Positions 6,396 to 33,708 of a DNA stretch of 64,000 nucleotides are shown here, in pieces. The stretch comes from a bacterium (GTDB lineage Bacteria; Patescibacteriota; Minisyncoccia; Phycocordibacterales; UBA6899): assembly GCA_043756865.1 (NCBI GenBank), contig JAYUQG010000019.1:101467-165466 (forward strand). The letters run 5' to 3'. The notes beneath the pieces were generated by a model, which was not told the origin of the DNA, ran no database searches, and saw only the letters and a program-made list of their open reading frames with translations. Each line of letters begins with the position of its first letter. Position 1 is the first letter of the stretch. The translations under genes and the position numbers were made by a program.

Positions 6396-6557
6396 GCGTT
6401 TATCGAGAGTACGGAGTAGGGAATTGGCCCGATGATACCGTCAGCAACCACCTCTGGAGAGGAGCGGTGCTAAATCCAATCCCTTATAGGGGAGATGAAT
6501 GTGGTTGGAGGAATAATGGCAACCAAAAAAGTCTTTCCCAAACGGAAGGCTTTTTTG
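6396..6557 (+). promoter_or_regulatory. SAM-I (S-box) riboswitch with a terminator-type expression platform, upstream of metK
   Basis: UUUAUCGAGAG..GGAGUAGGGAAUUGGCCCGAUGAUACC..CAGCAACC...GGUGCUAAAUCC...CCCUUAUAGGGG..GAUGAA matches the SAM-I conserved cores (GAGGGAnnGGCCCGAUGA, GCAACC, GGUGCUAAAUCC). P1 pairs UUUAUC with GAUGAA. Downstream hairpin gtctttcc..ggaaggc followed by ttttttg. A TGTTATAAT -10 lies about 20 nt upstream at 6371-6379. Confidence 0.75.
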
Positions 6558-6646: not shown

Positions 6647-7699
6647 ATGCAACGCATTCAGCAAACACACACTGTCGAGAGTGTGACCGCAGGTCATCCG
6701 GACAAAGTGTGTGACCAGATATCAGATGCCATTTTAGATGCATGCCTCACACAAGACCCGAAATCGAGAGTCGCCATTGAAAGTTTCGGTGCACACGGAC
6801 TGTTGGTTATTGGGGGCGAGCTCACGACTGACGCACGTATCGATGCATCAGCAATTGCGCGCAAAGTTTATCGCGACATCGGATACGACAACGAACTTGA
6901 AATCATCGAGCGCATTGTGACACAGTCTCCCGATATTGCGATGGGCGTGGACCAAGATGGTGCAGGCGATCAAGGTATTATGTATGGCTATGCCACAAAC
7001 GAAACTGAAGAATATCTCCCGCGTGGCATTACCCTTGTACACAAGCTTACAAAGGGACTCGAAGACTTACGGAAAAGCGGAAAAATTAACTGGCTGCGTC
7101 CTGATGGCAAGGCACAAGTGACCATTTCTGACGGCAAAGTCCGCACGGTGCTTGTGTCTACGCAACATGCTGATGGCATACAGCATAGCGAAATCCGAGA
7201 AGCCATCATCGACGAACTCATCCGGCCTATTATTGGCGACATTGGGCGCACCGAAATACTCGTGAACCCCACAGGACGCTTCGTGCAAGGCGGATTTGAG
7301 GCTGACACTGGGCTCACGGGGCGCAAGCTGATGGTAGATACCTACGGCGGACTCATAGCGCACGGTGGAGGGGCATTTTCGGGCAAAGACGCAACCAAGG
7401 TAGACCGCTCGGGTGCATACATGTGCCGCTATGTAGCGAAAAATCTCGTGGCAAACAAACTCGCGAAGGAAGCGACCGTGTCAGTTGCCTACGCCATCGG
7501 GCACCCCGAACCGCTCATGGTCGCAGCGGTTGACGAGAATGGTGAGGACCTCTTCGATGTTGTGCGCAATCGGTTTGACTTTCGTCCCAAGTCCATCATT
7601 CAGCAACTCGATTTGCGAAAACCTATTTTCGCACAAACAGCGGCTTACGGTCACTTCGGAAAGGCAGGCTTACCTTGGGAAACCGTTATACAAATATAA
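6647..7699 (+). CDS. metK: S-adenosylmethionine synthetase
   Basis: ESVTAGHPDKVCDQISDAILDACL, GDQGIMYGYATNETEEYLP, LVNPTGRFVQGGFEADTGLTGRKLMVDTYGG, HGGGAFSGKDATKVDRSGAYMCRYVAKN. Confidence 0.92.
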   Translation: MQRIQQTHTVESVTAGHPDKVCDQISDAILDACLTQDPKSRVAIESFGAHGLLVIGGELTTDARIDASAIARKVYRDIGYDNELEIIERIVTQSPDIAMGVDQDGAGDQGIMYGYATNETEEYLPRGITLVHKLTKGLEDLRKSGKINWLRPDGKAQVTISDGKVRTVLVSTQHADGIQHSEIREAIIDELIRPIIGDIGRTEILVNPTGRFVQGGFEADTGLTGRKLMVDTYGGLIAHGGGAFSGKDATKVDRSGAYMCRYVAKNLVANKLAKEATVSVAYAIGHPEPLMVAAVDENGEDLFDVVRNRFDFRPKSIIQQLDLRKPIFAQTAAYGHFGKAGLPWETVIQI

Positions 7700-22069: not shown

Positions 22070-22675
22070 TTACTTTTTTCCAAACAATTTACGGAAACCC
22101 TTGAGTATTGGTCCAGCATCATTCATTTTTGTTTTCGCATCTTGGGCTGCCAAACTGGCAGTATGTCTCGCGTTGCGGTACTGGTTTACTGCTGTGGCTA
22201 GTTTTTGCGCATCACCGCTCTCAATAGCTGACGCAATTTCGGGCGTATCATACTCTCCCGTCTTACCAATCTCATCAACCATTTGCCGCACAATTCCAGG
22301 GCGTGCTTCATCGGTGCTGTACATGAGGTCACCATATAAATTTCCGACTTTTGCATCAGCGTTACGTTTTGACGCGCTTACCTCCTCTTCAGTTGGTGGG
22401 ATCTCAGATGCTGCTTCGAAATTGCTTAATATCGCTGATTTAAGGTCCCCTTCAAGCTCTGCCACTTCTTGCGCATGAGACACTTCCGCGGCTACTGCGG
22501 AATCATTCGCTTCGGCGATATTTGCTTCCATGGCGGCAGCAGCTTCTGCTTCGCCTTCCGCATTCACGTCGGCGGGAGAGGTCTCTCCGTCTTCGCCCAA
22601 CTTTTCTGTTTCTGGATTCATAAATATAATTGTAACCATAAAAGCATTTTTCGCAAGCATTTTAAAGTGCCACAT
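22070..22675 (-). CDS. Acidic Ala/Glu-rich hypothetical protein
   Basis: RBS gaggacacATG at 22675. Low-complexity acidic middle region and basic C-terminus (ILKGFRKLFGKK). Confidence 0.5.
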   Translation of the reverse strand: MWHFKMLAKNAFMVTIIFMNPETEKLGEDGETSPADVNAEGEAEAAAAMEANIAEANDSAVAAEVSHAQEVAELEGDLKSAILSNFEAASEIPPTEEEVSASKRNADAKVGNLYGDLMYSTDEARPGIVRQMVDEIGKTGEYDTPEIASAIESGDAQKLATAVNQYRNARHTASLAAQDAKTKMNDAGPILKGFRKLFGKK

Positions 22676-22729
22676 GTGTCCTCAATTCGACTGCTTGATA
22701 CTCGTCATTCGATACTCTATACTCACCCT

Positions 22730-23827
22730 ATGTCATTATCTGTAGGTATCGTGGGACTTCCCAACGTGGGGAAATCGACTCTCTTTAAAGCGCTTACGAA
22801 AAAGGCTGTGCTTATTGCGAATTACCCATTTGCAACAATCGACCCATCAGTCGGAGTCGTTGAGGTGCCCGATGAGCGCCTGAAGACGCTCAGCGATTTT
22901 TCGCATTCTAAGAAAACGGTTCCCGCCATTGTGGAATTCGTCGACATCGCGGGGCTCGTAAAGGGTGCGTCAGAAGGTGAAGGTCTCGGAAATAAATTCC
23001 TCGCAAATATCCGCGAAACTGATGCAATTGGCGAAGTGGTGCGTATTTTTGACGACTCTGACATCATCCATGTCGATGGCAAAATCGACCCACTTTCTGA
23101 CGTAATTACCATCAACCTCGAACTCACTATCGCCGACCTTCAAACCGTAGAAAAACGGACTGACTCGATAGTGCGCGATGTAAAGCGGGGCGACAAGGAC
23201 GCAGCGAAAGAACACGCAGTCTTGGTGAAGCTACTCGCTGTACTAGAAAAGGGTGAAATGGCAAGCCGTGCAGTACTCGATGCAGAAGAACGCATGGTCG
23301 CAAAAAGCTTGAATCTCATGACCATCAAGCCAATTCTCTATATCCTAAACAAAAAAGCTGGAGCGAAAAATCTCGATGAAATAAATGACGAGCGTTATCA
23401 AAAACTTATTGCCTACTTCAAGGAGAATGGTGACCAGTATGTTATTGTCGATGCAAAAATCGAAGAAGAGTTAAGTGAGTTTGAGGGGGATGAAAAGAAA
23501 ATGTTTGCCAAAGAACTCGGTGCAAAAGGAGACGGTATAGACGACCTTATTGTTGCGGCATACAAACTTCTCGGACTTATGACCTACTTCACGACAGGCG
23601 AAGACGAGACACGGGCATGGACAATCAAAGTCGGATCAACTGCACCCGTTGCAGGTATGGCCATTCATACTGATTTCAAAGAAAAGTTTATCCGTGCAGA
23701 AGTGGTCAACTGGAAGGCACTCCTCGAGGCTGGTTCTTACGGAGCGGCACGCGAAAAAGGCCTCGTGAAGACAGAAGGGAAGGAATATATCGTCAAAGAG
23801 GGGGATGTCATCGAGTTTAAGATATAA
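22730..23827 (+). CDS. ychF: Ribosome-binding ATPase YchF (Obg-family GTPase)
   Basis: MSLSVGIVGLPNVGKSTLFKALT...FATIDP...EFVDIAGLVKGASEGEGLGNKFLANIRETDAI...TYFTTGEDETRAWTI...DFKEKFIRAEV. The start is moved from the track's upstream M to the conserved N-terminus at 22730. Confidence 0.92.
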   Translation: MSLSVGIVGLPNVGKSTLFKALTKKAVLIANYPFATIDPSVGVVEVPDERLKTLSDFSHSKKTVPAIVEFVDIAGLVKGASEGEGLGNKFLANIRETDAIGEVVRIFDDSDIIHVDGKIDPLSDVITINLELTIADLQTVEKRTDSIVRDVKRGDKDAAKEHAVLVKLLAVLEKGEMASRAVLDAEERMVAKSLNLMTIKPILYILNKKAGAKNLDEINDERYQKLIAYFKENGDQYVIVDAKIEEELSEFEGDEKKMFAKELGAKGDGIDDLIVAAYKLLGLMTYFTTGEDETRAWTIKVGSTAPVAGMAIHTDFKEKFIRAEVVNWKALLEAGSYGAAREKGLVKTEGKEYIVKEGDVIEFKI

Positions 23828-23867
23828 GGTGTCTAAAAATAAACCCCGCGTATTTGCGAGGTGAGAA

Positions 23868-24104
23868 TTAGCCTTGGTTGCGAGCTCTACTTTCTTTGGG
23901 CGGCTTCTGTCTTCCCGCAATGCGCTTTGCCCAGTCGGCGAATTCACGAGCGCTGGTGTTCTGCGCGTTAGTGCTTGCGCCTTCTGCAAAGACCACTTGG
24001 ACGGGGTGCCCCTGCGCGTTTTGAGACAAACTGACGATGGTTCGCGTCGTGTTCTTCTTGTGACCCTCATACGATTTGCCTGTTTCGAGTTCAGTTACCT
24101 TCAT
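23868..24104 (-). CDS. Small hypothetical protein (78 aa) with a basic C-terminus
   Basis: ATG at 24104 preceded by gaaaggtagaac. No TM segment. No recognisable domain. Confidence 0.4.
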   Translation of the reverse strand: MKVTELETGKSYEGHKKNTTRTIVSLSQNAQGHPVQVVFAEGASTNAQNTSAREFADWAKRIAGRQKPPKESRARNQG

Positions 24105-24176
24105 GTTCTACCTTTCAGTGAATACCAGTTTGCTACGATAACTCAAAAATGTTTTCTGCACAAGGTTAAGTAAGTA

Positions 24177-24286
24177 TGGTGGCTCAATCAATACCCGCGC
24201 GAAGCGCCTGCATTGGCGCGCAGTGCAGGAAAGTAAGTCTTCGAGCGACAAATGCCAAATAGTGGGGCTTTTTGTTTGTTTATACT
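24177..24286 (+). ncRNA. Conserved intergenic element, copy B, homologous to 5096..5210
   Basis: tggtggctcaatcaataCCCGCGCGAAGCGCCTgcattggcgcgcagtgcaggaaAGTAAGTCTTCGAGCGACAAatgccaaatagtGGGGCTTTTTGTttgtttatac. Lies between two small minus-strand genes, so its functional strand is unresolved. Confidence 0.3.
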
Positions 24287-24318
24287 TTTTATCCTGCAAA
24301 TTCACGTACAAAGAAGTT

Positions 24319-24347
24319 CAGCCCACGAAACCTTGGTTTCGTGGGCT
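24319..24347. terminator. Strong hairpin. Likely terminator of the minus-strand 35-codon ORF or 3' end of element B.
   Basis: cagcccacgaaacc ttgg ggtttcgtgggctg: 12-14-bp perfect stem. On the minus strand it is followed by the U-rich tract aacttctttg. Confidence 0.55.
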
Positions 24348-24366
24348 GTATTGTCGGGGGAGATGT

Positions 24367-24474
24367 TCACTCGCCCCGCAGGTGTTCGTCAGCGTTGCCG
24401 AAGACGATGCGGCCGATGCCCATAAAGCAGAGCAAGAGGGCGGTCATGAAGAAATCCTCGATTACTTTGGTCAT
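24367..24474 (-). CDS. Small hydrophobic peptide of 35 aa, below the ORF-track length cutoff
   Basis: MTKVIEDFFMTALLLCFMGIGRIVFGNADEHLRGE. Strong SD gaaggagctgaaATG with 6-nt spacing. Its own near-consensus promoter lies upstream and the hairpin lies downstream. Confidence 0.5.
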   Translation of the reverse strand: MTKVIEDFFMTALLLCFMGIGRIVFGNADEHLRGE

Positions 24475-24511
24475 TTCAGCTCCTTCGGGTTGATGAACGA
24501 ATTACGTTTTT

Positions 24512-24558
24512 ATTATAGCATGTTCACAACTTATTGTAAATAGCTTCATTATTTACAA
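24512..24558 (-). promoter_or_regulatory. Sigma70-type promoter on the minus strand (TTACAA, 16-nt spacer, extended TGCTATAAT) with a perfect 9-bp inverted repeat overlapping the -35
   Basis: Plus-strand ttgtaaata gcttcat tatttacaa at 24534-24558. The minus-strand reading is ttacaa-N16-tgctataat at 24539..24512. Drives the 35-codon ORF. Confidence 0.5.
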
Positions 24559-24573
24559 TTGTTGATAAAAGAA

Positions 24574-24600
24574 AAAGCCCCAAGGGGCATTTGTTTTTGA
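24574..24600. terminator. Terminator-like hairpin with a T-run
   Basis: aaaaagcccc aa ggggcatttgttttt. Confidence 0.45.
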
Positions 24601-24608
24601 GAGAAGGG

Positions 24609-24818
24609 TCAGTCTTGTCGTAAGTCGTACCAGAACCAGATCGACACGATGACTGCCGAAATTCCTGAGAGGTACAGGTACCACCGAAATTCGGTCCAGA
24701 GTATGTACACCGCACTCCCAGCGAGTGCGAGCGTGCACATGAGCACCATGAGGCTTGTCAGCAACTCTACATACGGGTTGTGGCGGATCCATTCCGCCAA
24801 ATCATCTTTGCGGGACAT
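24609..24818 (-). CDS. Small membrane protein of 69 aa with two predicted TM helices
   Basis: LTSLMVLMCTLALAGSAVYILW and LYLSGISAVIVSIWFWY. RBS aggggtgtgccATG. Confidence 0.5.
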   Translation of the reverse strand: MSRKDDLAEWIRHNPYVELLTSLMVLMCTLALAGSAVYILWTEFRWYLYLSGISAVIVSIWFWYDLRQD

Positions 24819-24827
24819 GGCACACCC

Positions 24828-25025
24828 CTAGTTGTACGGCGTGTAATTGGGGTCGGACATCGCCCGCTTCGCGATGTTCTCGGCGTGATCGTCGAGCGTA
24901 CCGCCATGATCGGAATGCGTGTCCTTCTCTGGGAGCACCGGCGGCTTCCTGAAGTGGAAGTAGGCTGCCCCCGCAAGTAGGGCAATGAGTGCAATCATTC
25001 CCCACATGATGTAATGCGCGTTCAT
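24828..25025 (-). CDS. Small membrane protein of 65 aa with one TM helix
   Basis: MNAHYIMWGMIALIALLAGAAYFHF. RBS ggagaaaacATG. Tandem with the preceding small gene, with a 9-nt gap. Confidence 0.5.
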   Translation of the reverse strand: MNAHYIMWGMIALIALLAGAAYFHFRKPPVLPEKDTHSDHGGTLDDHAENIAKRAMSDPNYTPYN

Positions 25026-25233
25026 GTTTTCTCCAGTCTAAATGTTAGGTACTCGCCAAAAGTCGAAGCGGCGCTTCGCCTTGACAACTCTGAAATCTTG
25101 ATGAGTTCTATCATGTTTCATTCATGTTGTAAATAAGTACAGAGTTCAGCATGCACGTACCCGACACCAACAACTGAGATACTGCCCACACTATTGCGAA
25201 TCAAAGGTGAATTGGCATATTATGAGTAGCTAA

Positions 25234-28125
25234 ATGAAGGAATACGACCCAAGCAAAATAGAAAAGAAGTGGCAGAAAGACTGGGGCACTATGGGTGCGT
25301 TTCGCACCACAGAAGACCCCACAAAGCCAAAGTGCTATGTACTCGACATGTTTCCGTACCCCTCCGGTGACGGCTTGCACGTTGGTCACCCGAAGGGATA
25401 CATCGCGACGGATGTGTACTCACGATACAAGCACATGATGGGTCACGACATTCTTCATCCCATGGGCTGGGATGCGTTTGGGCTACCCGCAGAGCAGTAT
25501 GCTATCAAGAACAAAGTGCATCCAAGAATTGCCGTTGAGAAAAATGTTGCGCGCTTCAAAGACCAACTTTCACATCTCGGATTCAACTACGATTGGTCAC
25601 GTGAAGTGAATACCACTGACCCGAGTTTCTATAAATGGACACAGTGGATTTTTAAACAGCTGTACAAAAAAGGCCTCGCGTACGAGAGCTTTGAGCCTAT
25701 CAATTGGTGCCCCGTCGACAAGACAGGACTTTCCAATGAAGACCTTGAAAATGGGAAGTGTGAACGGTGTGGTAGTCCTGTAGAAAAAAAAGCAATCCGA
25801 CAATGGGTGCTCAAGATTACTGCGTATGCAGACCGGATGCTTGCCGATTTAGATGGACTTAACTGGCCCGAGCATATCAAGGAGAGTCAGCGCAATTGGA
25901 TTGGCAAAAGTGAAGGCGCTGAAATTGAGTTTACACTTTCGGGATTTTCCGGACAGGACGACGGAACGCACAAGGTCAAAGTATTCACCACCCGTCCCGA
26001 TACGCTCTTCGGTGCAACCTACCTCGCTATTTCAGCAGAACTCGCACGCAAGTGGCTTTCCATCGGATGGGAAACCGCCGATGCAGTCAAAAACTTTGTC
26101 GCCGAGCTTGAGCAAGAAGAAAAAGACGGGGCATTTGATTTCAAAGAAGTCGCTCTGAAAAAAGGGATAGACACGGGAATAATCGCAACTAATCCCGCAA
26201 ATGGTGCGAAGATTCCTGTCTGGATTGCGAATTACGTCCTTTCTGGCTATGGCACTGGAGCAATCATGGCCGTACCCGCGCACGACGAACGCGACAATGA
26301 GTTTGCAGCAAAGTACGGAATCCCCATTATTGACGTCATTGCCAAGAAATACGTCGGGGAAGGTATACATGCCGAGCGGACAGGCGTAGAAACGGTTACC
26401 CGAAAGGTTGTAGATCCAATACTCCGAGACAAAGAGGGTAACTTTTATCTCATCAAGGAGGACGAGGCTCATGTGCATTTCGCGGGTGGGGGAATCGATG
26501 AGGGGGAGAGTGATATAGAAGCGGCGGGACGCGAGATAACCGAAGAAACAGGATTCACTGACTTTACCATCGCAAGAAAAGTTGCTCCCTCTATTGCGTG
26601 TTTTGGATACCGCCACACGAGAAACAGAAACCAGCGCTCGCTTGGCACGACCTATGAAGTGGTACTCAACTCCGATGCGCGAGTGCACTGCGAAGTTGAT
26701 GAAGGAAAACACGAGTTGATAAAAGTGCGGGGCGAGCACATGCTCAGCACCATCACTTGGCCGCACCACCAGTATCTCTTTGCACAGTACTTAGAGAACA
26801 GCCCAGCATACACGGGGAGCGGTATACTTTTTAACTCTGGAAAATTTGACGGCATGGAGAGCGAAGAAGCCAAAGCAGCGATTACTGAGTTTGTCGGAGG
26901 AAAGCTCGTCTCACAGTACCGTTTGAAAGAATGGGTGTTTGCGCGACAACGTTATTGGGGCGAACCGTTTCCTGTTGTCTTCGACAGTGCGCGCAAACCA
27001 TATATGGTTGCAGACAGTGAACTACCAGTTGTGCTTCCCAACGTTGAGAGCTACGAACCCACCGATACGGGGGAGAGTCCGCTTGCAAATATACGCGAGT
27101 GGGTGGAAGTATGCGGGTACATCAACGCCGATAACGAATTTGTTTCCTGTGACAAAAGCGATGCGCGGGCAAGCCGTTTTGAGCGTGAGACAAATACCAT
27201 GCCACAGTGGGCAGGTTCTTCGTGGTACTACCTCCGCTATATCGACCCGACCAACGCCACGGCACTCGTTGACAAGGAAAAGGAGCGCATGTGGTCGCCT
27301 GTGGATTTTTATGTCGGTGGTGCAGAGCATGCGACACGGCATCTTATCTACGCGCGGTTTTGGCATAAATTCCTTTTTGATATTGGTGTAGTGAATTACC
27401 CCGAGCCGTTCTTGCGTTTGCAAAACGTCGGGCTCATTATGGCAGACGATGGAAGGAAAATGTCGAAACGCTACGGTAATGTCATCAACCCCGACGACGT
27501 AGTCGCGACATACGGAGCAGACTCACTACGTGTCTACGAAATGTTTATGGGGCCCTTCGACCAGTCGATTGCTTGGTCGACAGACAACATGATAGGTGCG
27601 CGCCGATTTATCGAACGAGTATGGAGGTCAGCGCAGCGGGTTAGCGCAGATGCACCGCTTGTAAAAGAAACCGAACTCTTGCTCCACCAGACTATTAAGA
27701 AAGTGGGCGAGGACATAGAAAGCTTCAGTTTTAATACGGCGATATCCCAACTCATGATACTCCAGAATCATCTCGAGAAACTCGAGCAAATTCCGAAGGA
27801 AGCATATATGACGCTGCTCAAACTCTTCGCACCTTTCGCACCCCACGTCACTGATGAGCTGTGGTCGTCTCAAGGAGAAACGGAAATACTCTACAATACC
27901 GCATGGCCAGTATTTGATGCGGAGAAGATGGTTTCAGATACACTCACAATTGCAATCCAAGTGAATGGCAAGCTTCGAGATACGTTCACAATTGCATCCG
28001 GAACCGATGAAGAATCCGTGAAAAATACCGCACTTTCCCGACCGTCAGTTGCGAAGTGGTTGGAAGGAAAAGCTCCAAAAAAAGTCATTTACGTCGCAGG
28101 TAAAATAGTCAATATTGTGTTTTAA
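25234..28125 (+). CDS. leuS: Leucyl-tRNA synthetase carrying an inserted Nudix-hydrolase-like domain (about aa 375-530)
   Basis: N-terminal PYPSGDGLHVGHPKGYIATDVYSRY (HIGH region). Editing domain. C-terminal KMSKRYGNV (KMSKS). The insertion at nt 26350-26815 contains GGGIDEGESDIEAAGREITEETGF, a perfect GX5EX7REUXEEXGU Nudix box. 963 aa, compared with about 800-880 for typical bacterial LeuS. Confidence 0.9.
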   Translation: MKEYDPSKIEKKWQKDWGTMGAFRTTEDPTKPKCYVLDMFPYPSGDGLHVGHPKGYIATDVYSRYKHMMGHDILHPMGWDAFGLPAEQYAIKNKVHPRIAVEKNVARFKDQLSHLGFNYDWSREVNTTDPSFYKWTQWIFKQLYKKGLAYESFEPINWCPVDKTGLSNEDLENGKCERCGSPVEKKAIRQWVLKITAYADRMLADLDGLNWPEHIKESQRNWIGKSEGAEIEFTLSGFSGQDDGTHKVKVFTTRPDTLFGATYLAISAELARKWLSIGWETADAVKNFVAELEQEEKDGAFDFKEVALKKGIDTGIIATNPANGAKIPVWIANYVLSGYGTGAIMAVPAHDERDNEFAAKYGIPIIDVIAKKYVGEGIHAERTGVETVTRKVVDPILRDKEGNFYLIKEDEAHVHFAGGGIDEGESDIEAAGREITEETGFTDFTIARKVAPSIACFGYRHTRNRNQRSLGTTYEVVLNSDARVHCEVDEGKHELIKVRGEHMLSTITWPHHQYLFAQYLENSPAYTGSGILFNSGKFDGMESEEAKAAITEFVGGKLVSQYRLKEWVFARQRYWGEPFPVVFDSARKPYMVADSELPVVLPNVESYEPTDTGESPLANIREWVEVCGYINADNEFVSCDKSDARASRFERETNTMPQWAGSSWYYLRYIDPTNATALVDKEKERMWSPVDFYVGGAEHATRHLIYARFWHKFLFDIGVVNYPEPFLRLQNVGLIMADDGRKMSKRYGNVINPDDVVATYGADSLRVYEMFMGPFDQSIAWSTDNMIGARRFIERVWRSAQRVSADAPLVKETELLLHQTIKKVGEDIESFSFNTAISQLMILQNHLEKLEQIPKEAYMTLLKLFAPFAPHVTDELWSSQGETEILYNTAWPVFDAEKMVSDTLTIAIQVNGKLRDTFTIASGTDEESVKNTALSRPSVAKWLEGKAPKKVIYVAGKIVNIVF

Positions 28126-28291
28126 TGTGTGAGAGTAAAAAATACCATACAAACAAAGGGTTATTTGGCAGTGGAAAAACACCTCACAAGCACTTGACAT
28201 TGTTTGTTGTAATGCTAAAACTATAAATAACCGAGTATTGGAGGGAAACTGTCAATACCTGTTAATTATTTTTCGCGTTATTTTATTTCTT

Positions 28292-29326
28292 ATGAGCACA
28301 ACGAGCATTGCATTCAAACCAAAGGTCGTCACCAAGCATTTTCTTTCTGTGCTCCCAAAGCGCGCACAGGATGTGATTGCAAAGCGCTACGGTCTAGGCA
28401 TGGAGACCAAGAAGATGACCCTCGAGGCCATCGGAGAAACATATGGCATAACGCGTGAGCGCGTACGCCAGATTGAGAACTTCGCACTCACCACGATTCG
28501 CAAGTCCGATGCCTTCAAAGAGGAGGCTCCTGCATTCGCAGAACTCCGTGAAGCAATGGTGAAACTCGGTGGACTCGTTCCCGAAGAAGACTTTCTCACG
28601 AAAGTCTCCTCCGAGAAATCAACACAAAACCACATTCACTTTCTACTCGTGCTTGGTGAGCTATTTATCAAACACAAAGAGGACGACGACTTCGGCCACC
28701 GATGGAGTACCGACCCCGAGGTCGCAGAAAAAGTGCATGATTCCCTCCGTAAACTCTACTCCTCGCTTTCCGATGAAGAACTCATCGAAGAATCAAAAAT
28801 GATTGAGAAGTTCCTGAATCATCTCAAAGATGTTTCAGAGGAATACAAGAACGAAGAAATCCTTCGCCGCTGGCTCTCACTCTCAAAAAAGATGGGCAAG
28901 AATCCATTGGGAGAGTGGGGTGTCGCGCATTCACCAAACGTCTCAGCACGCGGTGTCCGTGATTACGCATTTCTCGTACTTCGCAAGCACGGTTCACCCA
29001 TGCACTTCACTGAAGTTGCGAGCGCAATCGGTGAACACTTCGACAAGCGCGCACATGTAGCAACAACACACAACGAACTTATCAAGGACAAACGTTTCGT
29101 CCTCGTTGGCCGCGGTCTCTACGCACTCTCAGAGTGGGGTTACTCTACCGGAGTCGTACGTGACGTGATTGCAGATATTCTCAAGAAGAGCGGACCTTTG
29201 ACACGTGAGGATGTCGTCGAGAAGGTGATGCGCGAGCGCTATGTGAAGCCAAACACAATTCTCGTCAATTTACAGAACCCCAAGTACTTCAAGAAGAACA
29301 AAGAGGGGAAGTACGTGGCAGCATAA
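28292..29326 (+). CDS. Protein with an N-terminal sigma-70 region-4-like HTH and a C-terminal HARE-HTH-like domain (resembling the RNAP delta N-terminus)
   Basis: LPKRAQDVIAKRYGLGMETKKMTLEAIGETYGITRERVRQIENFAL matches the sigma r4 pattern. The C-terminus FTEVASAIGEHF...DKRFVLVGRGLYALSEWGY resembles HARE-HTH. The start is placed at the internal ATG at 28292. Confidence 0.55.
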   Translation: MSTTSIAFKPKVVTKHFLSVLPKRAQDVIAKRYGLGMETKKMTLEAIGETYGITRERVRQIENFALTTIRKSDAFKEEAPAFAELREAMVKLGGLVPEEDFLTKVSSEKSTQNHIHFLLVLGELFIKHKEDDDFGHRWSTDPEVAEKVHDSLRKLYSSLSDEELIEESKMIEKFLNHLKDVSEEYKNEEILRRWLSLSKKMGKNPLGEWGVAHSPNVSARGVRDYAFLVLRKHGSPMHFTEVASAIGEHFDKRAHVATTHNELIKDKRFVLVGRGLYALSEWGYSTGVVRDVIADILKKSGPLTREDVVEKVMRERYVKPNTILVNLQNPKYFKKNKEGKYVAA

Positions 29327-29355
29327 CAGTCACAAGACTCAAAAATCAGAAAAAA

Positions 29356-29386
29356 CTGCACCATCTTCTGATGGTGCAGTTTTTTT
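29356..29386 (+). terminator. Rho-independent terminator
   Basis: ctgcaccatc ttct gatggtgcag followed by ttttttt. Perfect 10-bp stem. Confidence 0.75.
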
Positions 29387-29471
29387 GTCAAAATCTTCAC
29401 CTTGAAATTGGTGACTTGCGTCCTCCTACTTATCCTTTGTACTCATAACTTCATGCTATATACTTGTACTT

Positions 29472-30698
29472 ATGTTTGAACCGTTCACGAGTTTTTTCAA
29501 TAAGCCCATATTTCATGTCATGGGACAGATTTATGACATGTTTGCGCTTTTGTCATTCATCTGGGGACCGATTCTCCTCGTATGGCTGGCGCAAAAACTG
29601 TGGCTGGAGTACGTCCGTATCGCGTTCATCAGAAAAAACTACGAATTTATCCTTCTTGAAATCAAGCTTCCCCGCACTATAGATAAAACCCCGATGGCGA
29701 TGGAGCTCGTACTGCAGGCACTCCATCAAGGCGGTACGGGGAACTGGTATGACCGTTGGTGGGGCGGAAAAGTAAAACCGTGGTTCTCTTTGGAGATTGT
29801 TTCCATTGAAGGAAACGTAAAATTCCTCCTACGCACTCCGTCTAAATTCAAGAAGCTTATCGAAAGCCACATCTATGCGCAGTATCCCGCCATCGAAGTG
29901 GTCGAAGTGCAGGACTACATCTCGCTCGCTCCATACATTCATGAAAAAAATGAGTGGAGTATCTGGGGCTGTGAGTTTGCGCTGACAAAACCCGATCCAT
30001 TTCCAATCAAAACCTACGTGGACTATGGTCTCGACAAAGCGGGTACAAAAGAAGAGTTCAAGAGCGATCCCATTACATCAATGATTGAGTTCTTGGGTTC
30101 GATTGGTCGCGGACAGCAAATCTGGATGCAAATATTGACGCAGGCAAATGGAGAGCGCTATGCAACACCGGGAAAGTGGTTTAGCAAGCACGACTGGAAA
30201 GATGAAGGGAAACGGCTGATAAAGGAGATACAGGCAAAGTATGCAGCCCCAGACGGCCCCAAGCCATCCAAAGGTGAGATGGAGTCCATCGCCGCGGTCG
30301 AACGCTCACTTTCAAAGATTGGATTTGATTGTGGAATTCGCGCGATTTACATTGCGAAGAAAGAAAATTTTGACCCTTCAAACATAGCCGGTATTACGGG
30401 GGCATTTCGCCAATATAGTTCACCGACGCTGAATGGCTTCAAGCCCACAAACACAACCGGATTCGATTATCCTTGGCAGGATTACCACGACATCCGACTC
30501 AATAAAAAGAAGAAGAAAATTTTTGATGCATACGTGCGACGCTCATACTTCTATGCACCATACAAGAAAAAGCCTTTTGTATTGAATAGTGAAGAGCTCG
30601 CTACGATTTATCATTTCCCTGGTGGTGTGGCGGAGACTCCAACCTTTACACGCATCGAATCACGCAAGGGCGAACCTCCTGCAAACCTCCCCATTTAA
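29472..30698 (+). CDS. Hypothetical membrane protein with one N-terminal TM segment and a large soluble domain
   Basis: ALLSFIWGPILLVWLAQKLW helix. No recognised catalytic motif. Preceded by a CATGCTATATA extended -10-like box about 12 nt from the ATG. Confidence 0.55.
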   Translation: MFEPFTSFFNKPIFHVMGQIYDMFALLSFIWGPILLVWLAQKLWLEYVRIAFIRKNYEFILLEIKLPRTIDKTPMAMELVLQALHQGGTGNWYDRWWGGKVKPWFSLEIVSIEGNVKFLLRTPSKFKKLIESHIYAQYPAIEVVEVQDYISLAPYIHEKNEWSIWGCEFALTKPDPFPIKTYVDYGLDKAGTKEEFKSDPITSMIEFLGSIGRGQQIWMQILTQANGERYATPGKWFSKHDWKDEGKRLIKEIQAKYAAPDGPKPSKGEMESIAAVERSLSKIGFDCGIRAIYIAKKENFDPSNIAGITGAFRQYSSPTLNGFKPTNTTGFDYPWQDYHDIRLNKKKKKIFDAYVRRSYFYAPYKKKPFVLNSEELATIYHFPGGVAETPTFTRIESRKGEPPANLPI

Positions 30699-30699
30699 A

Positions 30700-31707
30700 A
30701 TGGAAGAAGAGCCTGTCGATTTACGAGAACAGAAGATTACCGTCTCACGCAAACCCAAAAGAGCGCGGGCGATATTTCTCTTTGTGTTGGTCAGCGTAAT
30801 TTTTGGCGGGTTTGCCTTTCTTTGGAATGAAACACGCCCACCCACAATATTTCCAGCGAGTGTCATTGTGGAAATACCTGCAGGAACTTCAGTGCGGGGC
30901 ATAGCGGAAATACTGCAATACAACGGGATTATTCATTCACCGACACTTTTTCGAATGCTAATCATACTTTCAGGTAAAGAGTCGGGCATACAGTCCGGTG
31001 CGTACTTGTTTTCTGAGCAGATGGATTTGTCGCAAGTCACTCGCAAGATGCTCACCACGGATCGCGGAATCGAACGCATACGCCTCACGATCCCCGAAGG
31101 TCTCACTTTAAGACAAACTGCAACACTAGTCGCCAAGGGGTTACCTGCAACTTCTGAAACTGATTTCTTAGCGTTATCCAAGGGCAAAGAGGGATATCTC
31201 TTTCCTGATACATATTTTTTCTTATCAAATGCAACAACCGGTCCAGTGGCTCTCGCAATGTCAGAGAATTTCATCACGAAAACTGCTACGCTGAAACAAG
31301 AAGCAACTGAGCTAGGCAAAGAATGGTCAGATATCGTTACGATGGCGTCTATTATCGAAGAAGAGACAGTCTCTGACTTCGATCAGCGTCTCGTTTCTGG
31401 AGTACTGTGGAATCGTATTAAAATTGGCATGCGGCTTCAGGTGGACGCTTCGTTTGCATACTTACTCGGAAAACCGTCGAGTGAAATTACCGTCACCGAC
31501 CTCGAACTGGATTCGCCATATAACACGTATCGCTATGCAGGATTACCTCCCGCTCCCATCGCAAACCCTGGGCTACGCGCACTGTCTGCCGCACTGTATC
31601 CCACTGCAAATAGTTATTTATATTATCTTTCCGATGCCGATGGCGTACTTCACTATGCGAAGACCTTTGAGGAGCACAAAGCGAACAAAGAGAAGTACCT
31701 AAGATAG
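30700..31707 (+). CDS. mltG: Endolytic murein transglycosylase MltG (YceG family)
   Basis: N-terminal TM. LTIPEGLTLRQTA...ASIIEEET...LQVDASFAYLLG...YNTYRYAGLPPAPIANPG. The start ATG abuts the stop of the preceding gene. Confidence 0.85.
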   Translation: MEEEPVDLREQKITVSRKPKRARAIFLFVLVSVIFGGFAFLWNETRPPTIFPASVIVEIPAGTSVRGIAEILQYNGIIHSPTLFRMLIILSGKESGIQSGAYLFSEQMDLSQVTRKMLTTDRGIERIRLTIPEGLTLRQTATLVAKGLPATSETDFLALSKGKEGYLFPDTYFFLSNATTGPVALAMSENFITKTATLKQEATELGKEWSDIVTMASIIEEETVSDFDQRLVSGVLWNRIKIGMRLQVDASFAYLLGKPSSEITVTDLELDSPYNTYRYAGLPPAPIANPGLRALSAALYPTANSYLYYLSDADGVLHYAKTFEEHKANKEKYLR

Positions 31708-31741
31708 CCCGTGGCGTCAAATATTTGGCGGGATAAAAAAA

Positions 31742-33139
31742 ATGCGCTATGGTAGTTTCATGCAACTGCAGATCGCAAATATTTCCAAGGCGTATTTTGT
31801 CGGTGTGGGTGGAATTGGCGTTTCCGCCATCATGCGCTATTTTGCGAAACAAGGTATTACACTCGTGGGCTCCGACATTGTACTTCCGCGGGCAGGATAC
31901 CTCCCCGAAGGAACGTATTACGAGGGTCCGCACCGCGACCATGTGCCCGCTGACTCATCGGTCTTGATTTATTCTCCCGCCGTACCTGAAACCAACGTGG
32001 AGCGCGTACGCGCACGCGAAATCGGCATACCTGAACTTTCTTACCCTGAGGCGCTCGCACTGGTGACTCATCCTCACCCCACAATGGCAATTTCAGGTAC
32101 CCACGGCAAATCGACCACAACAGCTCTTGCGGGAAAACTTTTTGAGTCAGGGAAGCTTGATGCAACTGTGATTGTCGGTGCAGACGTACCCGGATGGGAC
32201 AATAATTTTCATGAGGGGAAAGGGGATATGTTTATTGTTGAAGCATGCGAATATCGTCGCCATATGATGCATCTTTCGCCACAGGCAATTGTCCTCACCA
32301 ATCTGGAGCTTGACCACCCCGACTACTACCACGACCTCGCAGATATCAAACAAGCGTTTCGGGAGTACATCGGCAAGCTCTCAGGTGAAGACTTACTCAT
32401 CATCAACAACGATGATGCGAATATTCGCGACATCACGCGCGATTTCGACGCTATCATAGTACGATTCGGCGTCGGAGGTGGGGCAGACCTTGTTGCAAAA
32501 AATATTAAGCAGCTCGAAATGGAGCAACAGTTCGATTTGGAGTGGAAAGGCACAACCATAGGCACCTTCACCACACACTTACCGGGCCTCTACAATATTT
32601 ACAACATACTTGCAGCGACCGCCCCATACCTTGCATATGGAGGACCCCAGCAGGCCATACAAGGTGTACTCAGCGCATTTTATGGAGTGGGCAGGCGCTT
32701 TGAAGTACTCGGTGAGCGTGAAGGTACAATCATCGTCTCTGACTACGCGCATCACCCCACCGCACTGCGCGCTGTCTATGACGCAGCTTCGGCACGATAT
32801 GCCGGAAAAAACATCCTCACGGTATTTCGACCGCACCACCGCGAGCGCACAATAAAACTGTTTGACCAATTTATAGAAACATTCCTCGCAATTCCGCACA
32901 CCATACTTATAGAGATATATGACGTAGCAGGAAGAGAAGAAGAAACTCCAATTAGCTCGCGCGATGTTATCACCAAGGTGCTCGAACACGACCCGAGAAA
33001 GGATATCCTATTTGCAAAAGACATGAAGGATGCAGAGGAAAAGGTGAAATCAATGGCACACCTCTTTGATGTTATCCTTATTGTAGGAGCAGGCGATGCA
33101 GACCAGCTCGCAAAAAAAATGATAACTACTAACGCATAA
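31742..33139 (+). CDS. murC: UDP-N-acetylmuramate--L-alanine ligase (Mur ligase family, MurC-like)
   Basis: YFVGVGGIGVSAIMRYFAKQGITLVGSD. MAISGTHGKSTTTALAGKLF. TNLELDHPDYY. Confidence 0.8.
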   Translation: MRYGSFMQLQIANISKAYFVGVGGIGVSAIMRYFAKQGITLVGSDIVLPRAGYLPEGTYYEGPHRDHVPADSSVLIYSPAVPETNVERVRAREIGIPELSYPEALALVTHPHPTMAISGTHGKSTTTALAGKLFESGKLDATVIVGADVPGWDNNFHEGKGDMFIVEACEYRRHMMHLSPQAIVLTNLELDHPDYYHDLADIKQAFREYIGKLSGEDLLIINNDDANIRDITRDFDAIIVRFGVGGGADLVAKNIKQLEMEQQFDLEWKGTTIGTFTTHLPGLYNIYNILAATAPYLAYGGPQQAIQGVLSAFYGVGRRFEVLGEREGTIIVSDYAHHPTALRAVYDAASARYAGKNILTVFRPHHRERTIKLFDQFIETFLAIPHTILIEIYDVAGREEETPISSRDVITKVLEHDPRKDILFAKDMKDAEEKVKSMAHLFDVILIVGAGDADQLAKKMITTNA

Positions 33140-33150
33140 CTTGTTACGTC

Positions 33151-33708
33151 ATGAAAAATCTTAAACTCGCATTTGTTGATCTTGAAACCACCGGATTAGA
33201 CCCAATGAACCACGAAGTGATCGAGATCGGAATAGTGATTGCCGAGCAAGTACAGGGTGCAAATGGAAAACAGACACTCAACTTACTCTCCGAACACAAT
33301 ATTCAACTCCTGCCCACACATATCGAGAACGCCGACCCCAAGGGTCTTGAGGTAAACAAATATTACAAACGCGACTGGAGTGCCGCCGTACCACAACAAG
33401 AAGGCCTTGCAGCAGCCGCGAAGTTATTTGGCGGGGCTGTGTTTATCGCACAGAACGTGGGTGGAGATTGGGCGTTTCTACTCAAGGCTGGTGCTGACCA
33501 CGGAGTGAAGTTTGAGGGGACGGTGCATTACCACAAGCTCGACCTTGCTTCGATGGCATTCGGGAAACTCTATCATGAGCCGAAACTCTTCAAGTTTAGC
33601 CTGCGAGAACTCACAGAATATTTCGAAGTGACAAATCAGGACGCACATACCGCACTTGCTGACGCGCGGGCGACGTACGAAGTTTGCAAAAAATTGCTGG
33701 AACTGTAG
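33151..33708 (+). CDS. DEDDh 3'-5' exonuclease (DnaQ / Pol III epsilon-like)
   Basis: FVDLETTGLDPMNHEVIEIG (Exo I). HTALADARATYEV (Exo III). Confidence 0.8.
   Translation: MKNLKLAFVDLETTGLDPMNHEVIEIGIVIAEQVQGANGKQTLNLLSEHNIQLLPTHIENADPKGLEVNKYYKRDWSAAVPQQEGLAAAAKLFGGAVFIAQNVGGDWAFLLKAGADHGVKFEGTVHYHKLDLASMAFGKLYHEPKLFKFSLRELTEYFEVTNQDAHTALADARATYEVCKKLLEL

What the first reader, a model, noticed from the sequence alone, without database searches (positions are those of the whole stretch)
26350..26815. Leucyl-tRNA synthetase with an embedded Nudix hydrolase domain
An uninterrupted 963-aa LeuS ORF carries a roughly 155-aa insertion between the end of the editing region (HDERDNEFAAKYGIPIIDVI) and the leucyl-specific/KMSKS region (LFNSGKFDG...KMSKRYG). 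The insertion contains a textbook Nudix box, GGGIDEGESDIEAAGREITEETGF, fitting GX5EX7REUXEEXGU with both catalytic glutamates. A Nudix pyrophosphohydrolase inside an aminoacyl-tRNA synthetase could hydrolyse misactivated aminoacyl-adenylates, Ap4A or other nucleotide by-products. I am not aware of this fusion being described.
Basis: partly seen in the sequence, partly recalled or inferred. Interest (0 to 1): 0.7.

Follow-up and report, generated by a model that had tools for sequence, protein, structure and literature searches.

The report
Nudix hydrolase inside LeuS editing domain
The essential leucyl-tRNA synthetase of this candidate-phyla-radiation (Patescibacteria) bacterium carries a complete, apparently active Nudix pyrophosphatase domain inside its proofreading domain; the design is shared by many relatives but is not described in the literature I could search.

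Summary

One correction: the insert replaces an 11-residue loop inside the CP1 editing domain. It does not lie between the editing domain and the KMSKS region, and the leucine-specific domain is absent.

The fusion is not unique. 90 of the 120 closest LeuS, all those with source names being Patescibacteria lineages, carry a Nudix at the same loop. G419, E434, E437 and E438 are invariant in all 90. HIGH, KMSK and the editing motifs are also intact.

Insert-less orthologs sit in the same gene neighbourhood, so this is the housekeeping LeuS. Insert and core histories are decoupled (core 82% identical, insert 24%), so the module was swapped or regained. Related LeuS carry up to three Nudix domains, plus alpha/beta-hydrolase, HAD or ASCH inserts at other loops.

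The substrate is unresolved. Profiles lean weakly towards RppH/Ap4A-hydrolase-type enzymes, which fits clearance of dinucleoside polyphosphates made by synthetases. No paper describing the fusion was found.

The parts
25234..28125 (+). leuS: 963-aa bacterial-type leucyl-tRNA synthetase, including the stop codon
   Evidence: ORF. TIGR00396 scores 929 bits against a 548 cut-off. E 4e-187 to T. thermophilus LeuRS 1h3n. Same synteny (YchF - LeuS - Sigma70_r4/HARE-HTH - ... - Mur ligase - RNase_T) as insert-less orthologs.
25378..25389 (+). HIGH motif (HVGH, aa 49-52) of the synthetic site
   Evidence: H49, G51 and H52 are present in every sequence that covers the site (89 of 90 with the insert, one gapped; 30 of 30 without); V50 in 87 of 90 and 28 of 30.
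25909..26919 (+). CP1 editing domain (about aa 226-562), interrupted by the Nudix insert; boundaries approximate
   Evidence: Pfam PF13603, 189 bits in two stretches, the first covering aa 220-372 = profile 1-143 of 185. Mapping to Tth CP1 224-417. The CP1+Nudix model has pLDDT 90.6 and pTM 0.85.
25987..26004 (+). Threonine-rich editing motif TTRPDT (aa 252-257)
   Evidence: T252, T253, R254, D256 and T257 are invariant in all 120 LeuS.
26278..26295 (+). Editing-site motif AHDERD (aa 349-354)
   Evidence: A349, H350, D351, R353 and D354 are invariant in all 120 LeuS.
26347..26805 (+). 153-aa Nudix domain insert (aa 372-524) replacing an 11-residue CP1 loop
26488..26556 (+). Nudix box GGIDEGESDIEAAGREITEETGF (aa 419-441)
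   Evidence: Exact regex match. Among 90 orthologs: G419 90, E425 72 (+10 D), R433 77 (+11 K), E434 90, E437 90, E438 90, G440 88.
26608..26640 (+). Basic loop Y459-R-H-T-R-N-R-N-Q-R-S469 downstream of the box; candidate substrate or polyphosphate-binding determinant
   Evidence: Position 463 is K in 86 and R in 3 of 90 (R in the query). N466 is 77 of 90. Position 459 is aromatic (F 52, Y 30). The same H-x-K-x-x-N signature occurs in stand-alone relatives. Its role is inferred.
26349..26368 (+). First copy of an imperfect 20-nt direct repeat at the start of the insert (encodes KYVGEGI)
   Evidence: 70% identical to 26808-26827, spacing 459 nt = insert length. 4 of 8 residues match at protein level. 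Enrichment across homologs is only weak.
26808..26827 (+). Second copy of the direct repeat, immediately after the insert (encodes AYTGSGI, the native CP1 loop motif)
   Evidence: Insert-less LeuS have a single Y-[VT]-G-x-G here, e.g. CYVGEGPLVNSG in P0052.
27457..27468 (+). KMSK motif (aa 742-745)
   Evidence: Invariant in all 120 LeuS. Only 11 residues separate NVGL from KMSK, so there is no leucine-specific domain.

Best explanation
The housekeeping LeuS of this Patescibacteria (Paceibacteria-type) bacterium is a bifunctional enzyme. A complete, catalytically competent Nudix pyrophosphohydrolase domain is spliced into a surface loop of the CP1 editing domain and packs against it. The synthetic and editing sites stay intact.

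Shown here:
- The fold is Nudix.
- The metal-binding and catalytic residues are invariant across 90 diverged orthologs, while the rest of the insert drifts to about 25% identity.
- The gene is the positional ortholog of insert-less LeuS.
- The module recurs at several LeuS loops.

Inferred:
- The domain hydrolyses nucleotides joined through a polyphosphate chain. Dinucleoside polyphosphates such as Ap4A/Ap_nN are the most likely substrates.
- Synthetases make these compounds when enzyme-bound aminoacyl-adenylate reacts with ATP or another nucleotide.
- Placing the hydrolase on the synthetase would destroy the by-products at their source, in cells with tiny genomes and a nucleotide supply dependent on salvage.
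For: - Identity and fold.
- Catalytic residues invariant in 90 of 90 (G419, E434, E437, E438) and near-invariant (R433, G440, E425).
- LeuS is functional: HIGH, KMSK, TTRxDT and AHDxRD are invariant with or without the insert.
- Orthology by synteny: insert-less LeuS lie in the same YchF - LeuS - Sigma70_r4/HARE-HTH - DUF8128 - Mur ligase - RNase_T context.
- Defined packing on CP1: the two-domain model has pTM 0.85.
- Repeated association: 47 of 130 nearest 50%-identity cluster representatives in an exhaustive search are synthetase-embedded, all with LeuS-type CP1 where that region is present, carrying 1-3 Nudix copies at several sites.
- A conserved, strongly basic loop (R460, H461, K/R463, N466, R468) suits a polyphosphate chain (inference).
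- Synthetases are a main Ap4A source and Nudix enzymes degrade it (PMC10148737).
Against: - The aromatic residue 18 positions after the box is F in 52 and Y in 30 of 90. It is therefore not the conserved Tyr that I recall as the Ap_nA-hydrolase signature.
- The same Nudix family also exists as stand-alone proteins and fused to unrelated partners (Ham1, GNAT/M17 peptidase, an RNA-polymerase-like protein). Other hydrolases (HAD, alpha/beta-hydrolase, ASCH) are also inserted in LeuS. Both facts fit a generic hitch-hiking house-cleaning role as well as a LeuS-specific one.
- 30 of 120 close LeuS do without the insert.
- From memory, LeuRS is not among the strongest Ap4A producers.
Confidence: 0.4

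Rival explanations
1. Generic house-cleaning passenger. The Nudix domain sanitises the nucleotide pool or salvages nucleotides (non-canonical NTPs, NDP-X) and has no mechanistic link to leucylation. LeuS is simply a large, essential, constitutively expressed protein with insertion-tolerant loops, and it carries small hydrolases in streamlined genomes.
For: - LeuS of the same clade also carries HAD_2, Ser_hydrolase (alpha/beta) and ASCH domains at other loops.
- The Nudix family occurs stand-alone, in tandem arrays, and fused to Ham1/ITPase, GNAT + M17 peptidase and an RNA-polymerase-like protein.
- Modules are swapped or lost freely.
- MutT and NudI models are also hit by 17-24 of 42 inserts.
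Against: - In the exhaustive search, the synthetase-embedded relatives that retain the CP1 region are all LeuS-type. No IleRS or ValRS was seen.
- Up to three copies accumulate in one LeuS.
- The confident inter-domain packing (pTM 0.85) is more than a loose tether would give.
- Position-specific recurrence at the CP1 loop across four divergent subtypes suggests selection for that location.
Confidence: 0.3
2. RNA-end enzyme. An RppH-like pyrophosphohydrolase or decapping domain uses LeuS as a tRNA/RNA-binding platform. It would remove 5' pyrophosphate or Np4A/NAD-type caps from tRNA-Leu or other RNAs.
For: - RppH and YtkD are the most frequently hit curated families (37 and 31 of 42 inserts).
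- Weak Nudt16-like (decapping) Pfam hits appear in relatives.
- CP1 contacts the acceptor end of tRNA, next to the 5' end (established LeuRS structural knowledge, from memory).
Against: - All hits are far below cut-offs and centred on the Nudix box.
- Mature tRNAs normally carry a 5' monophosphate.
Confidence: 0.12
3. Pre-transfer editing (one of the first reader's suggestions). The Nudix domain hydrolyses misactivated aminoacyl-adenylates released from the synthetic site.
For: Only the location inside the editing domain and the general logic of quality control.
Against: - Nudix enzymes cleave pyrophosphate linkages. An aminoacyl-adenylate is an acyl-phosphate, and I know of no Nudix precedent for it.
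- The CP1 post-transfer editing site is fully conserved, so nothing needs compensating.
- 30 close orthologs lack the insert with identical editing motifs.
- Nudix copies also sit at loops outside CP1.
Confidence: 0.06
4. Non-catalytic structural or regulatory module (a nucleotide sensor or RNA-binding Nudix fold, like the MutY C-terminal domain or mitoribosomal L46).
For: Nudix folds without catalysis exist and appear among the structural hits (MutY, MRP-L46).
Against: Those examples have lost the Nudix box. Here E434, E437, E438 and G419 are invariant in 90 of 90, while the surrounding sequence falls to about 25% identity. That is the signature of selection on catalysis.
Confidence: 0.04

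Closest known systems
RppH/NudH and plant/bacterial-type Nudix Ap4A hydrolases (e.g. lupin 1f3y, Aquifex 3i7u, E. coli RppH 7sp3)
   Same: Nudix alpha/beta/alpha fold, canonical box, and best sequence-profile matches. Both are small single-domain polyphosphate-nucleotide hydrolases of about 150 aa.
   Different: Only 13-22% identity over the listed Foldseek matches. Scores are far below NCBIfam equivalog cut-offs (22.9-23.3 against 116-118 bits for the query). It has its own downstream signature (aromatic-x-H-x-K-x-x-N). It is embedded in another enzyme rather than free-standing. Its substrate is untested.
Enterococcus faecalis MutT/nudix family protein, PDB 2azw (structural-genomics target, function unknown)
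   Different: 17-18% identity, stand-alone, uncharacterised. It gives no functional transfer.
Canonical bacterial LeuRS (E. coli 4aq7, T. thermophilus 1h3n/2byt)
   Same: Same catalytic core, ZN1, CP1 editing domain with all editing residues, anticodon-binding and C-terminal domains.
   Different: A 153-aa Nudix domain replaces an 11-residue CP1 loop, and the leucine-specific domain next to KMSKS is deleted.
Synthetases carrying an extra enzymatic domain, e.g. NCBIfam NF040702 'isoleucine--tRNA ligase, N-acetyltransferase domain-containing'
   Same: A class Ia synthetase fused to an unrelated small-molecule enzyme domain. The family exists as a curated model and was weakly hit through the synthetase core.
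   Different: Different synthetase and different domain (GNAT). How that domain is attached to IleRS was not examined here. No curated NCBIfam model for a Nudix-bearing LeuS was returned.
Bifunctional Nudix fusions such as NadM-Nudix (NMN adenylyltransferase/ADP-ribose pyrophosphatase, PRK05379)
   Same: A Nudix domain fused to an adenylate-forming or nucleotidyl-transfer enzyme. 3-4 of 42 inserts weakly hit these models.
   Different: From memory, those are end-to-end fusions with ADP-ribose specificity. Here the ADPRase-type proline is absent and the domain is inserted internally.

Membership tests
Bacterial leucyl-tRNA synthetase (TIGR00396 leuS_bact) | Whole-protein score above the curated equivalog cut-off | tested here: met
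   929.1 bits against a 548.4 cut-off, in two stretches split by the insert.
Bacterial leucyl-tRNA synthetase (TIGR00396 leuS_bact) | Class I signature motifs HIGH and KMSKS | tested here: met
   HVGH at aa 49-52 and KMSK at aa 742-745; KMSK is invariant in all 120 relatives and H49, G51 and H52 in every sequence covering the site.
Bacterial leucyl-tRNA synthetase (TIGR00396 leuS_bact) | CP1 editing domain with the threonine-rich motif and the conserved Asp of AHDxRD | tested here: met
   PF13603 scores 189 bits. TTRPDT (252-257) and AHDERD (349-354) are invariant.
Bacterial leucyl-tRNA synthetase (TIGR00396 leuS_bact) | Leucine-specific domain preceding KMSKS (present in E. coli and T. thermophilus; not universal) | tested here: not met
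   Query 737-742 spans Tth 579-637. All 120 relatives have 11 residues there. This is a lineage trait and does not bar membership.
Nudix hydrolase superfamily (Pfam PF00293) | Score above the Pfam gathering threshold | tested here: met
   34.3 bits (whole protein) and 36.8 bits (insert segment) against 21.1.
Nudix hydrolase superfamily (Pfam PF00293) | Nudix box GX5EX7REUXEEXGU with the metal-binding glutamates | tested here: met
   aa 419-441 match exactly. E434, E437 and E438 are 90 of 90 among orthologs.
Nudix hydrolase superfamily (Pfam PF00293) | alpha/beta/alpha sandwich fold | tested here: met
Nudix hydrolase superfamily (Pfam PF00293) | Metal-dependent pyrophosphohydrolase activity | not testable with these tools
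   Needs an enzyme assay.
RppH (RNA pyrophosphohydrolase, NCBIfam PRK00714 equivalogs) | Score above the curated equivalog cut-off | tested here: not met
   Query scores 22.9-23.3 bits against cut-offs of 116-118. The best E-value among 42 family members is 4e-12, and for the query the match is limited to the region around the Nudix box.
Nudix Ap_nA hydrolases | Tyrosine 16-18 residues downstream of the Nudix box (signature recalled from Dunn et al. 1999; from memory) | tested here: inconclusive
   The query has Y459, 18 residues after F441. Across 90 orthologs the position is F in 52 and Y in 30, so it is aromatic but not a conserved Tyr.
Nudix ADP-ribose pyrophosphatases | Proline about 15-16 residues downstream of the box (recalled signature) | tested here: not met
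   Positions 456-457 are C/F in the query and A/V/C or W/G/F in the family. P452 is 11 residues downstream and is not conserved (17 of 90).
NADH pyrophosphatase (NudC) and CoA pyrophosphatase Nudix subfamilies | SQPWPFPxS motif downstream (NudC); NuCoA motif upstream of the box (CoAse) (recalled signatures) | tested here: not met
   Neither motif is present in the insert sequence, by direct reading of the translation. Only 8 of 42 inserts weakly hit the NAD(+) diphosphatase model.
Intein / mobile protein-splicing element | Cys/Ser at the insert's N-terminus, a C-terminal His-Asn followed by Cys/Ser/Thr, and Hint-domain blocks | tested here: not met
   The insert starts KKYVGEG and ends ...LENSP|AYTGSG. 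Pfam finds only NUDIX in the segment.

The most novel reading that the evidence does not exclude
In Paceibacteria-type CPR bacteria, LeuS is a modular scaffold. Interchangeable hydrolase cassettes are inserted at four defined loops and exchanged between lineages independently of the synthetase core. The cassettes seen are one to three Nudix domains, an alpha/beta serine hydrolase, a HAD phosphatase and ASCH. The CP1-embedded Nudix would be functionally coupled to aminoacylation, degrading Ap_nN alarmones or cap precursors made by the synthetase itself, or processing the end of its RNA substrate. That would make this the first synthetase with a built-in nucleotide-by-product hydrolase.
Probability: 0.25. 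Interest if true: 0.8.

Novelty: new variant of a known kind. Interest (0 to 1): 0.6.

Why it matters
Aminoacyl-tRNA synthetases are the classical source of Ap4A and related dinucleoside polyphosphates. Whether those compounds are signals or damage products is still debated.

A synthetase that has acquired and kept a catalytically intact Nudix pyrophosphatase, swapped versions of it, and sometimes carries up to three copies would be a natural experiment on that question. It can be tested directly with one recombinant protein.

The finding also shows that the CP1 editing domain tolerates a whole extra enzyme in one loop. It shows that ultra-small CPR genomes pack accessory hydrolases into essential translation proteins. 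This matters for annotation, because these genes are labelled only 'leucine--tRNA ligase'. It also matters for understanding CPR nucleotide economy and for engineering domain insertions into synthetases.

Tried and rejected
- A word-indexed homolog search with the insert alone found nothing. The exhaustive HMMER search was needed.
The single-sequence scan gave 20 Patescibacteria MAG loci.
- The AFDB50 fold library was unavailable.
- Taxonomy from rRNA or tRNA was not possible. The window has no tRNA, and the only Rfam gathering-level hit is a SAM riboswitch.
- Rosetta-stone test: three insert-less orthologs have no Nudix gene within 6 kb of leuS. Gene neighbourhood therefore gives no support for a functional link.
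- Recent horizontal insertion is rejected, because insert GC and GC3 match the rest of the gene.
- Assembly chimera is rejected, because identical genes occur in two independent runs and 90 orthologs exist.
- Intein or mobile splicing element is rejected, because the junction residues and Hint domain are absent.
- The target-site-duplication idea (20-nt repeat exactly bracketing the insert) is kept only as a lead. Across homologs the boundary similarity is weak (mean 1.36 of 8 against 0.50 for controls; 3 of 137 control windows equal or exceed it).
- Apparent fusions of the same Nudix family to RNA polymerase (P0186) and to Ham1 plus a synthetase N-terminus (P0181) were checked. P0186 sits among many small unannotated ORFs, which looks phage-like. 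P0181 contains only about 80 residues of synthetase. Neither is used as strong evidence.
Full report
**1. The observation.** The window holds an uninterrupted ORF at 25234..28125 (+) encoding 963 aa. It is a bacterial leucyl-tRNA synthetase: TIGR00396 scores 929 bits against a cut-off of 548, matched in two pieces. E is 4e-187 to T. thermophilus LeuRS 1h3n. Pfam finds the class I catalytic domain, the LeuRS editing domain PF13603 in two stretches, the anticodon-binding domain, and NUDIX PF00293 at aa 391-481. NUDIX scores 34.3 bits against a gathering cut-off of 21.1. The Nudix box G419...F441 (window 26488-26556) fits GX5EX7REUXEEXGU exactly. The identical protein is encoded on contigs from two independent sequencing runs. 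The insert's GC and GC3 are within the range of the rest of the gene.

**2. Where the insert sits.** The HMMER alignment to T. thermophilus LeuRS maps query 1-371 to Tth 1-364 and query 525-737 to Tth 376-579. So 153 residues (aa 372-524, window 26347-26805) replace an 11-residue loop. T. thermophilus CP1 spans residues 224-417, and Pfam's editing-domain profile is interrupted at position about 143 of 185. The insertion is therefore inside the editing domain. The segment after it (LFNSGKFDG...) is the C-terminal part of CP1. The leucine-specific domain is in fact absent: query 737-742 spans Tth 579-637, and all 120 closest relatives have only 11 residues between NVGL and KMSK.

**3. Is it a real Nudix domain?** An AlphaFold2 model of aa 366-534, built with a 42-sequence alignment of orthologous inserts, is very confident (mean pLDDT 95.5, pTM 0.88).
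- Foldseek finds 493 PDB matches at E<=1e-3. The listed top 50 are all Nudix-fold proteins.

**4. Conservation and distribution.** A search with the whole protein returned LeuS from Patescibacteria. Source names include Patescibacteria group, Parcubacteria, Nomurabacteria and Vogelbacteria, and Lloydbacteria for an insert-less relative. A species-genome scan added Adlerbacteria, Taylorbacteria, Paceibacterota/Paceibacteria and MAGs labelled 'uncultured Saccharibacteria'. In a MAFFT alignment of the best 120, 90 carry an insert of at least 100 aa at exactly this loop and 30 (800-998 aa) do not. Among the 90:

| Position | Count (of 90) |
|---|---|
| G419 | 90 |
| G420 | 83 |
| E425 | 72 (+10 D) |
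| R433 | 77 (+11 K) |
| E434 | 90 |
| E437 | 90 |
| E438 | 90 |
| G440 | 88 |

Outside the box, the conserved positions are R390 (79), position 463 (K in 86, R in 3), N466 (77), L478 (83) and E489 (71, +16 D). Position 459 is aromatic. Most of the remaining insert drifts to 22-30% identity. Invariant catalytic residues on a fast-evolving background indicate selection on catalysis.

**5. The host enzyme is the working LeuS.** H49, G51 and H52 of the HIGH motif are present in every sequence that covers it. KMSK and the key residues of the CP1 motifs TTRxDT and AHDxRD are invariant in all 120 sequences, whether or not the insert is present. The Nudix domain therefore adds to post-transfer editing and does not replace it. 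Three insert-less orthologs lie in the same gene order as the window: YchF - LeuS - Sigma70_r4/HARE-HTH protein - DUF8128 - (YceG) - Mur ligase - RNase_T. The Nudix-bearing gene is thus the positional ortholog of ordinary leuS, not a paralog. A model of CP1 plus the insert (aa 222-565) has pLDDT 90.6 and pTM 0.85, and the five models agree. This suggests a defined packing of the two domains rather than a loose tether.

**6. The module is mobile on an evolutionary scale.** Core identity and insert identity are decoupled.

| Homolog (vs the query) | Core identity | Insert identity |
|---|---|---|
| P0103 | 82% | 24% |
| P0005 | 77% | 28% |
| P0003 | 77% | 60% |
| P0010 | 64% | 61% |

Over 4005 pairs the Spearman correlation is 0.07. 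Four insert subtypes can be recognised by the motif after the box: RHTKxKNQ (the family the query's insert groups with; the query itself reads RHTRNRNQ), AHSK, HKDENR and AYSK. On a neighbour-joining tree of the core they are interleaved with each other and with insert-less LeuS (the tree has no support values). The loop has therefore seen repeated replacement, loss or re-acquisition. In the query, a 20-nt imperfect direct repeat brackets the insert exactly (26349-26368 and 26808-26827, spacing 459 nt). It encodes KYVGEGI and AYTGSGI, where insert-less LeuS have a single Y-[VT]-G-x-G. This looks like a duplicated target. The signal across homologs is weak (1.36 against 0.50 matches of 8), so I report it only as a lead.

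**7. Beyond this loop.** An exhaustive HMMER search of 1.84 billion cluster representatives with the insert gave 131 hits.
- 47 of the 130 analysed locally carry synthetase parts. All 42 that include the CP1 region have LeuS-type CP1.
- Their architectures are N-E-x-C, N-x-E-x-C, N-x-x-E-x-C, N-E-x-x-C and N-x-x-E-C. A single LeuS can hold up to three Nudix domains, some of them before CP1.
- Longer LeuS among the 120 carry further inserts at three other positions in query numbering: about 235-243 (HAD_2 or an unassigned insert), about 584 (Ser_hydrolase, alpha/beta fold) and about 640-646 (a second Nudix, or ASCH).
- The same Nudix family also exists as stand-alone proteins of 158-183 aa with the H-x-K-x-x-N signature, as a tandem array (P0137), and as a Nudix + alpha/beta-hydrolase protein outside LeuS (P0200).
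- Fusions to Ham1 (P0181), GNAT/M17 peptidase (P0167) and an RNA-polymerase-like protein in a phage-like context (P0186) were seen once each. I treat these cautiously.

**8. What it probably does.** It is shown that this is an intact Nudix active site on a functional synthetase. The substrate is inferred. Three observations lean towards polyphosphate-linked nucleotides of the Ap_nN/RppH type:
- The family profile's top PDB hits are lupin Ap4A hydrolase (1.5e-10) and, tied, the uncharacterised 2azw (1.6e-10).
- 37 of 42 inserts weakly match RppH models and 31 of 42 match YtkD.

The conserved loop after the box is strongly basic (R460, H461, K/R463, R468), as expected for binding a polyphosphate chain. 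Synthetases are a main source of Ap4A and Nudix enzymes degrade it (PMC10148737). My best explanation (confidence 0.4) is therefore clearance of dinucleoside polyphosphate by-products in cis.

The evidence is weak. All curated-family scores are far below cut-off, structural scores are flat across specificities, and the Ap_nA tyrosine signature (recalled from memory) is only an F/Y aromatic here. Signatures recalled for ADP-ribose, NADH and CoA subfamilies are absent.

The main rival (0.3) is a generic house-cleaning passenger with no coupling to leucylation. The other hydrolase inserts and the non-LeuS fusions favour it. An RNA-end (RppH-like) role gets 0.12. A non-catalytic role gets 0.04.

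**9. Comparison and novelty.** The host is a member of bacterial LeuRS, and the insert is a member of the Nudix superfamily. The insert is not a member of RppH, MutT, NudE or any other curated equivalog. Synthetases with appended enzymatic domains are known; for example, NCBIfam has a model for IleRS with a GNAT domain. Four full-text searches and two papers read gave no description of a Nudix domain in LeuRS or any synthetase. The architecture is nonetheless abundant in public protein collections, where it is named only 'leucine--tRNA ligase'. I rate it a new variant of a known kind. It is well supported as an entity, unresolved in function, and interesting mainly because it makes the synthetase-Ap4A relationship directly testable and reveals LeuS as an insertion scaffold in CPR bacteria.

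Noticed in passing
window 6397-6501 (+): SAM (S-box) riboswitch, 57.4 bits against a gathering score of 44.4. It lies upstream of the 350-aa ORF at 6647-7699. It is the only Rfam gathering-level hit in the window; no tRNA genes were found.
   Followed up: no
window 27442-27468 (aa 737-745); alignment of P0001-P0120: The leucine-specific domain that precedes KMSKS in E. coli and T. thermophilus LeuRS is absent. Only 11 residues separate NVGL from KMSK in all 120 Patescibacteria LeuS examined.
   Followed up: partly
P0048, P0084, P0090, P0096, P0106 (site ~584); P0010, P0029, P0031, P0038, P0051, P0086, P0035 (site ~640-646); P0074, P0075, P0095 (site ~640-646); P0077, P0090 (site ~235-243): Related LeuS carry further domains at three other loops. 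Pfam-confirmed examples are a Ser_hydrolase (alpha/beta) domain (P0048, P0090), a second Nudix (P0010, P0031; P0035 has a Nudix only at this site), an ASCH domain (P0074) and a HAD_2 phosphatase (P0077). The other listed proteins share the same insertion sites and precomputed Pfam annotation. P0095 and the ~235-243 insert of P0090 have no domain assignment.
   Followed up: partly
P0139, P0142, P0148, P0161, P0128 (hits): Some LeuS have two or three Nudix domains. This includes tandem pairs between the catalytic core and CP1, and in P0161 no Nudix at the CP1 loop at all.
   Followed up: partly
P0132 and P0200 (hits): These translations have W where invariant G is expected (WGWIEEW for GGGIEEG). 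That suggests they come from lineages that read UGA as glycine (code 25, Gracilibacteria/Absconditabacteria) and were translated with UGA read as Trp. If so, the LeuS-Nudix design extends to those lineages.
   Followed up: no
window 26349-26368 and 26808-26827: An imperfect 20-nt direct repeat exactly brackets the Nudix insert (spacing 459 nt = 153 codons). It duplicates the native Y-x-G-x-G-I loop motif and may be a scar of the insertion event. The signal across homologs is weak.
   Followed up: partly
L024 3307-6414 (P0186); L023 4001-5530 (P0181); P0167: The same Nudix family is fused to other partners: two Nudix domains plus RNA polymerase Rpb1 domains 4/5 on a contig of small unannotated ORFs (phage-like); Ham1/ITPase + Nudix + the first ~80 residues of a class I synthetase; and GNAT + Nudix + GNAT + M17 aminopeptidase.
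   Followed up: partly
window 22469-33708; L026, L027, L028: Gene order is conserved around leuS in this lineage: YchF - LeuS - Sigma70_r4/HARE-HTH protein - DUF8128 - YceG - Mur ligase - RNase_T. In the window, the ~1 kb between 30698 and 31742, where YceG is expected, holds only a 128-aa minus-strand ORF.
   Followed up: no
window 23828-25233: The spacer between ychF and leuS is about 1.4 kb, with only short ORFs that have no family hit. The same spacer is about 0.3-0.5 kb in three relatives (L026-L028). No Rfam family reaches its gathering score there.
   Followed up: no
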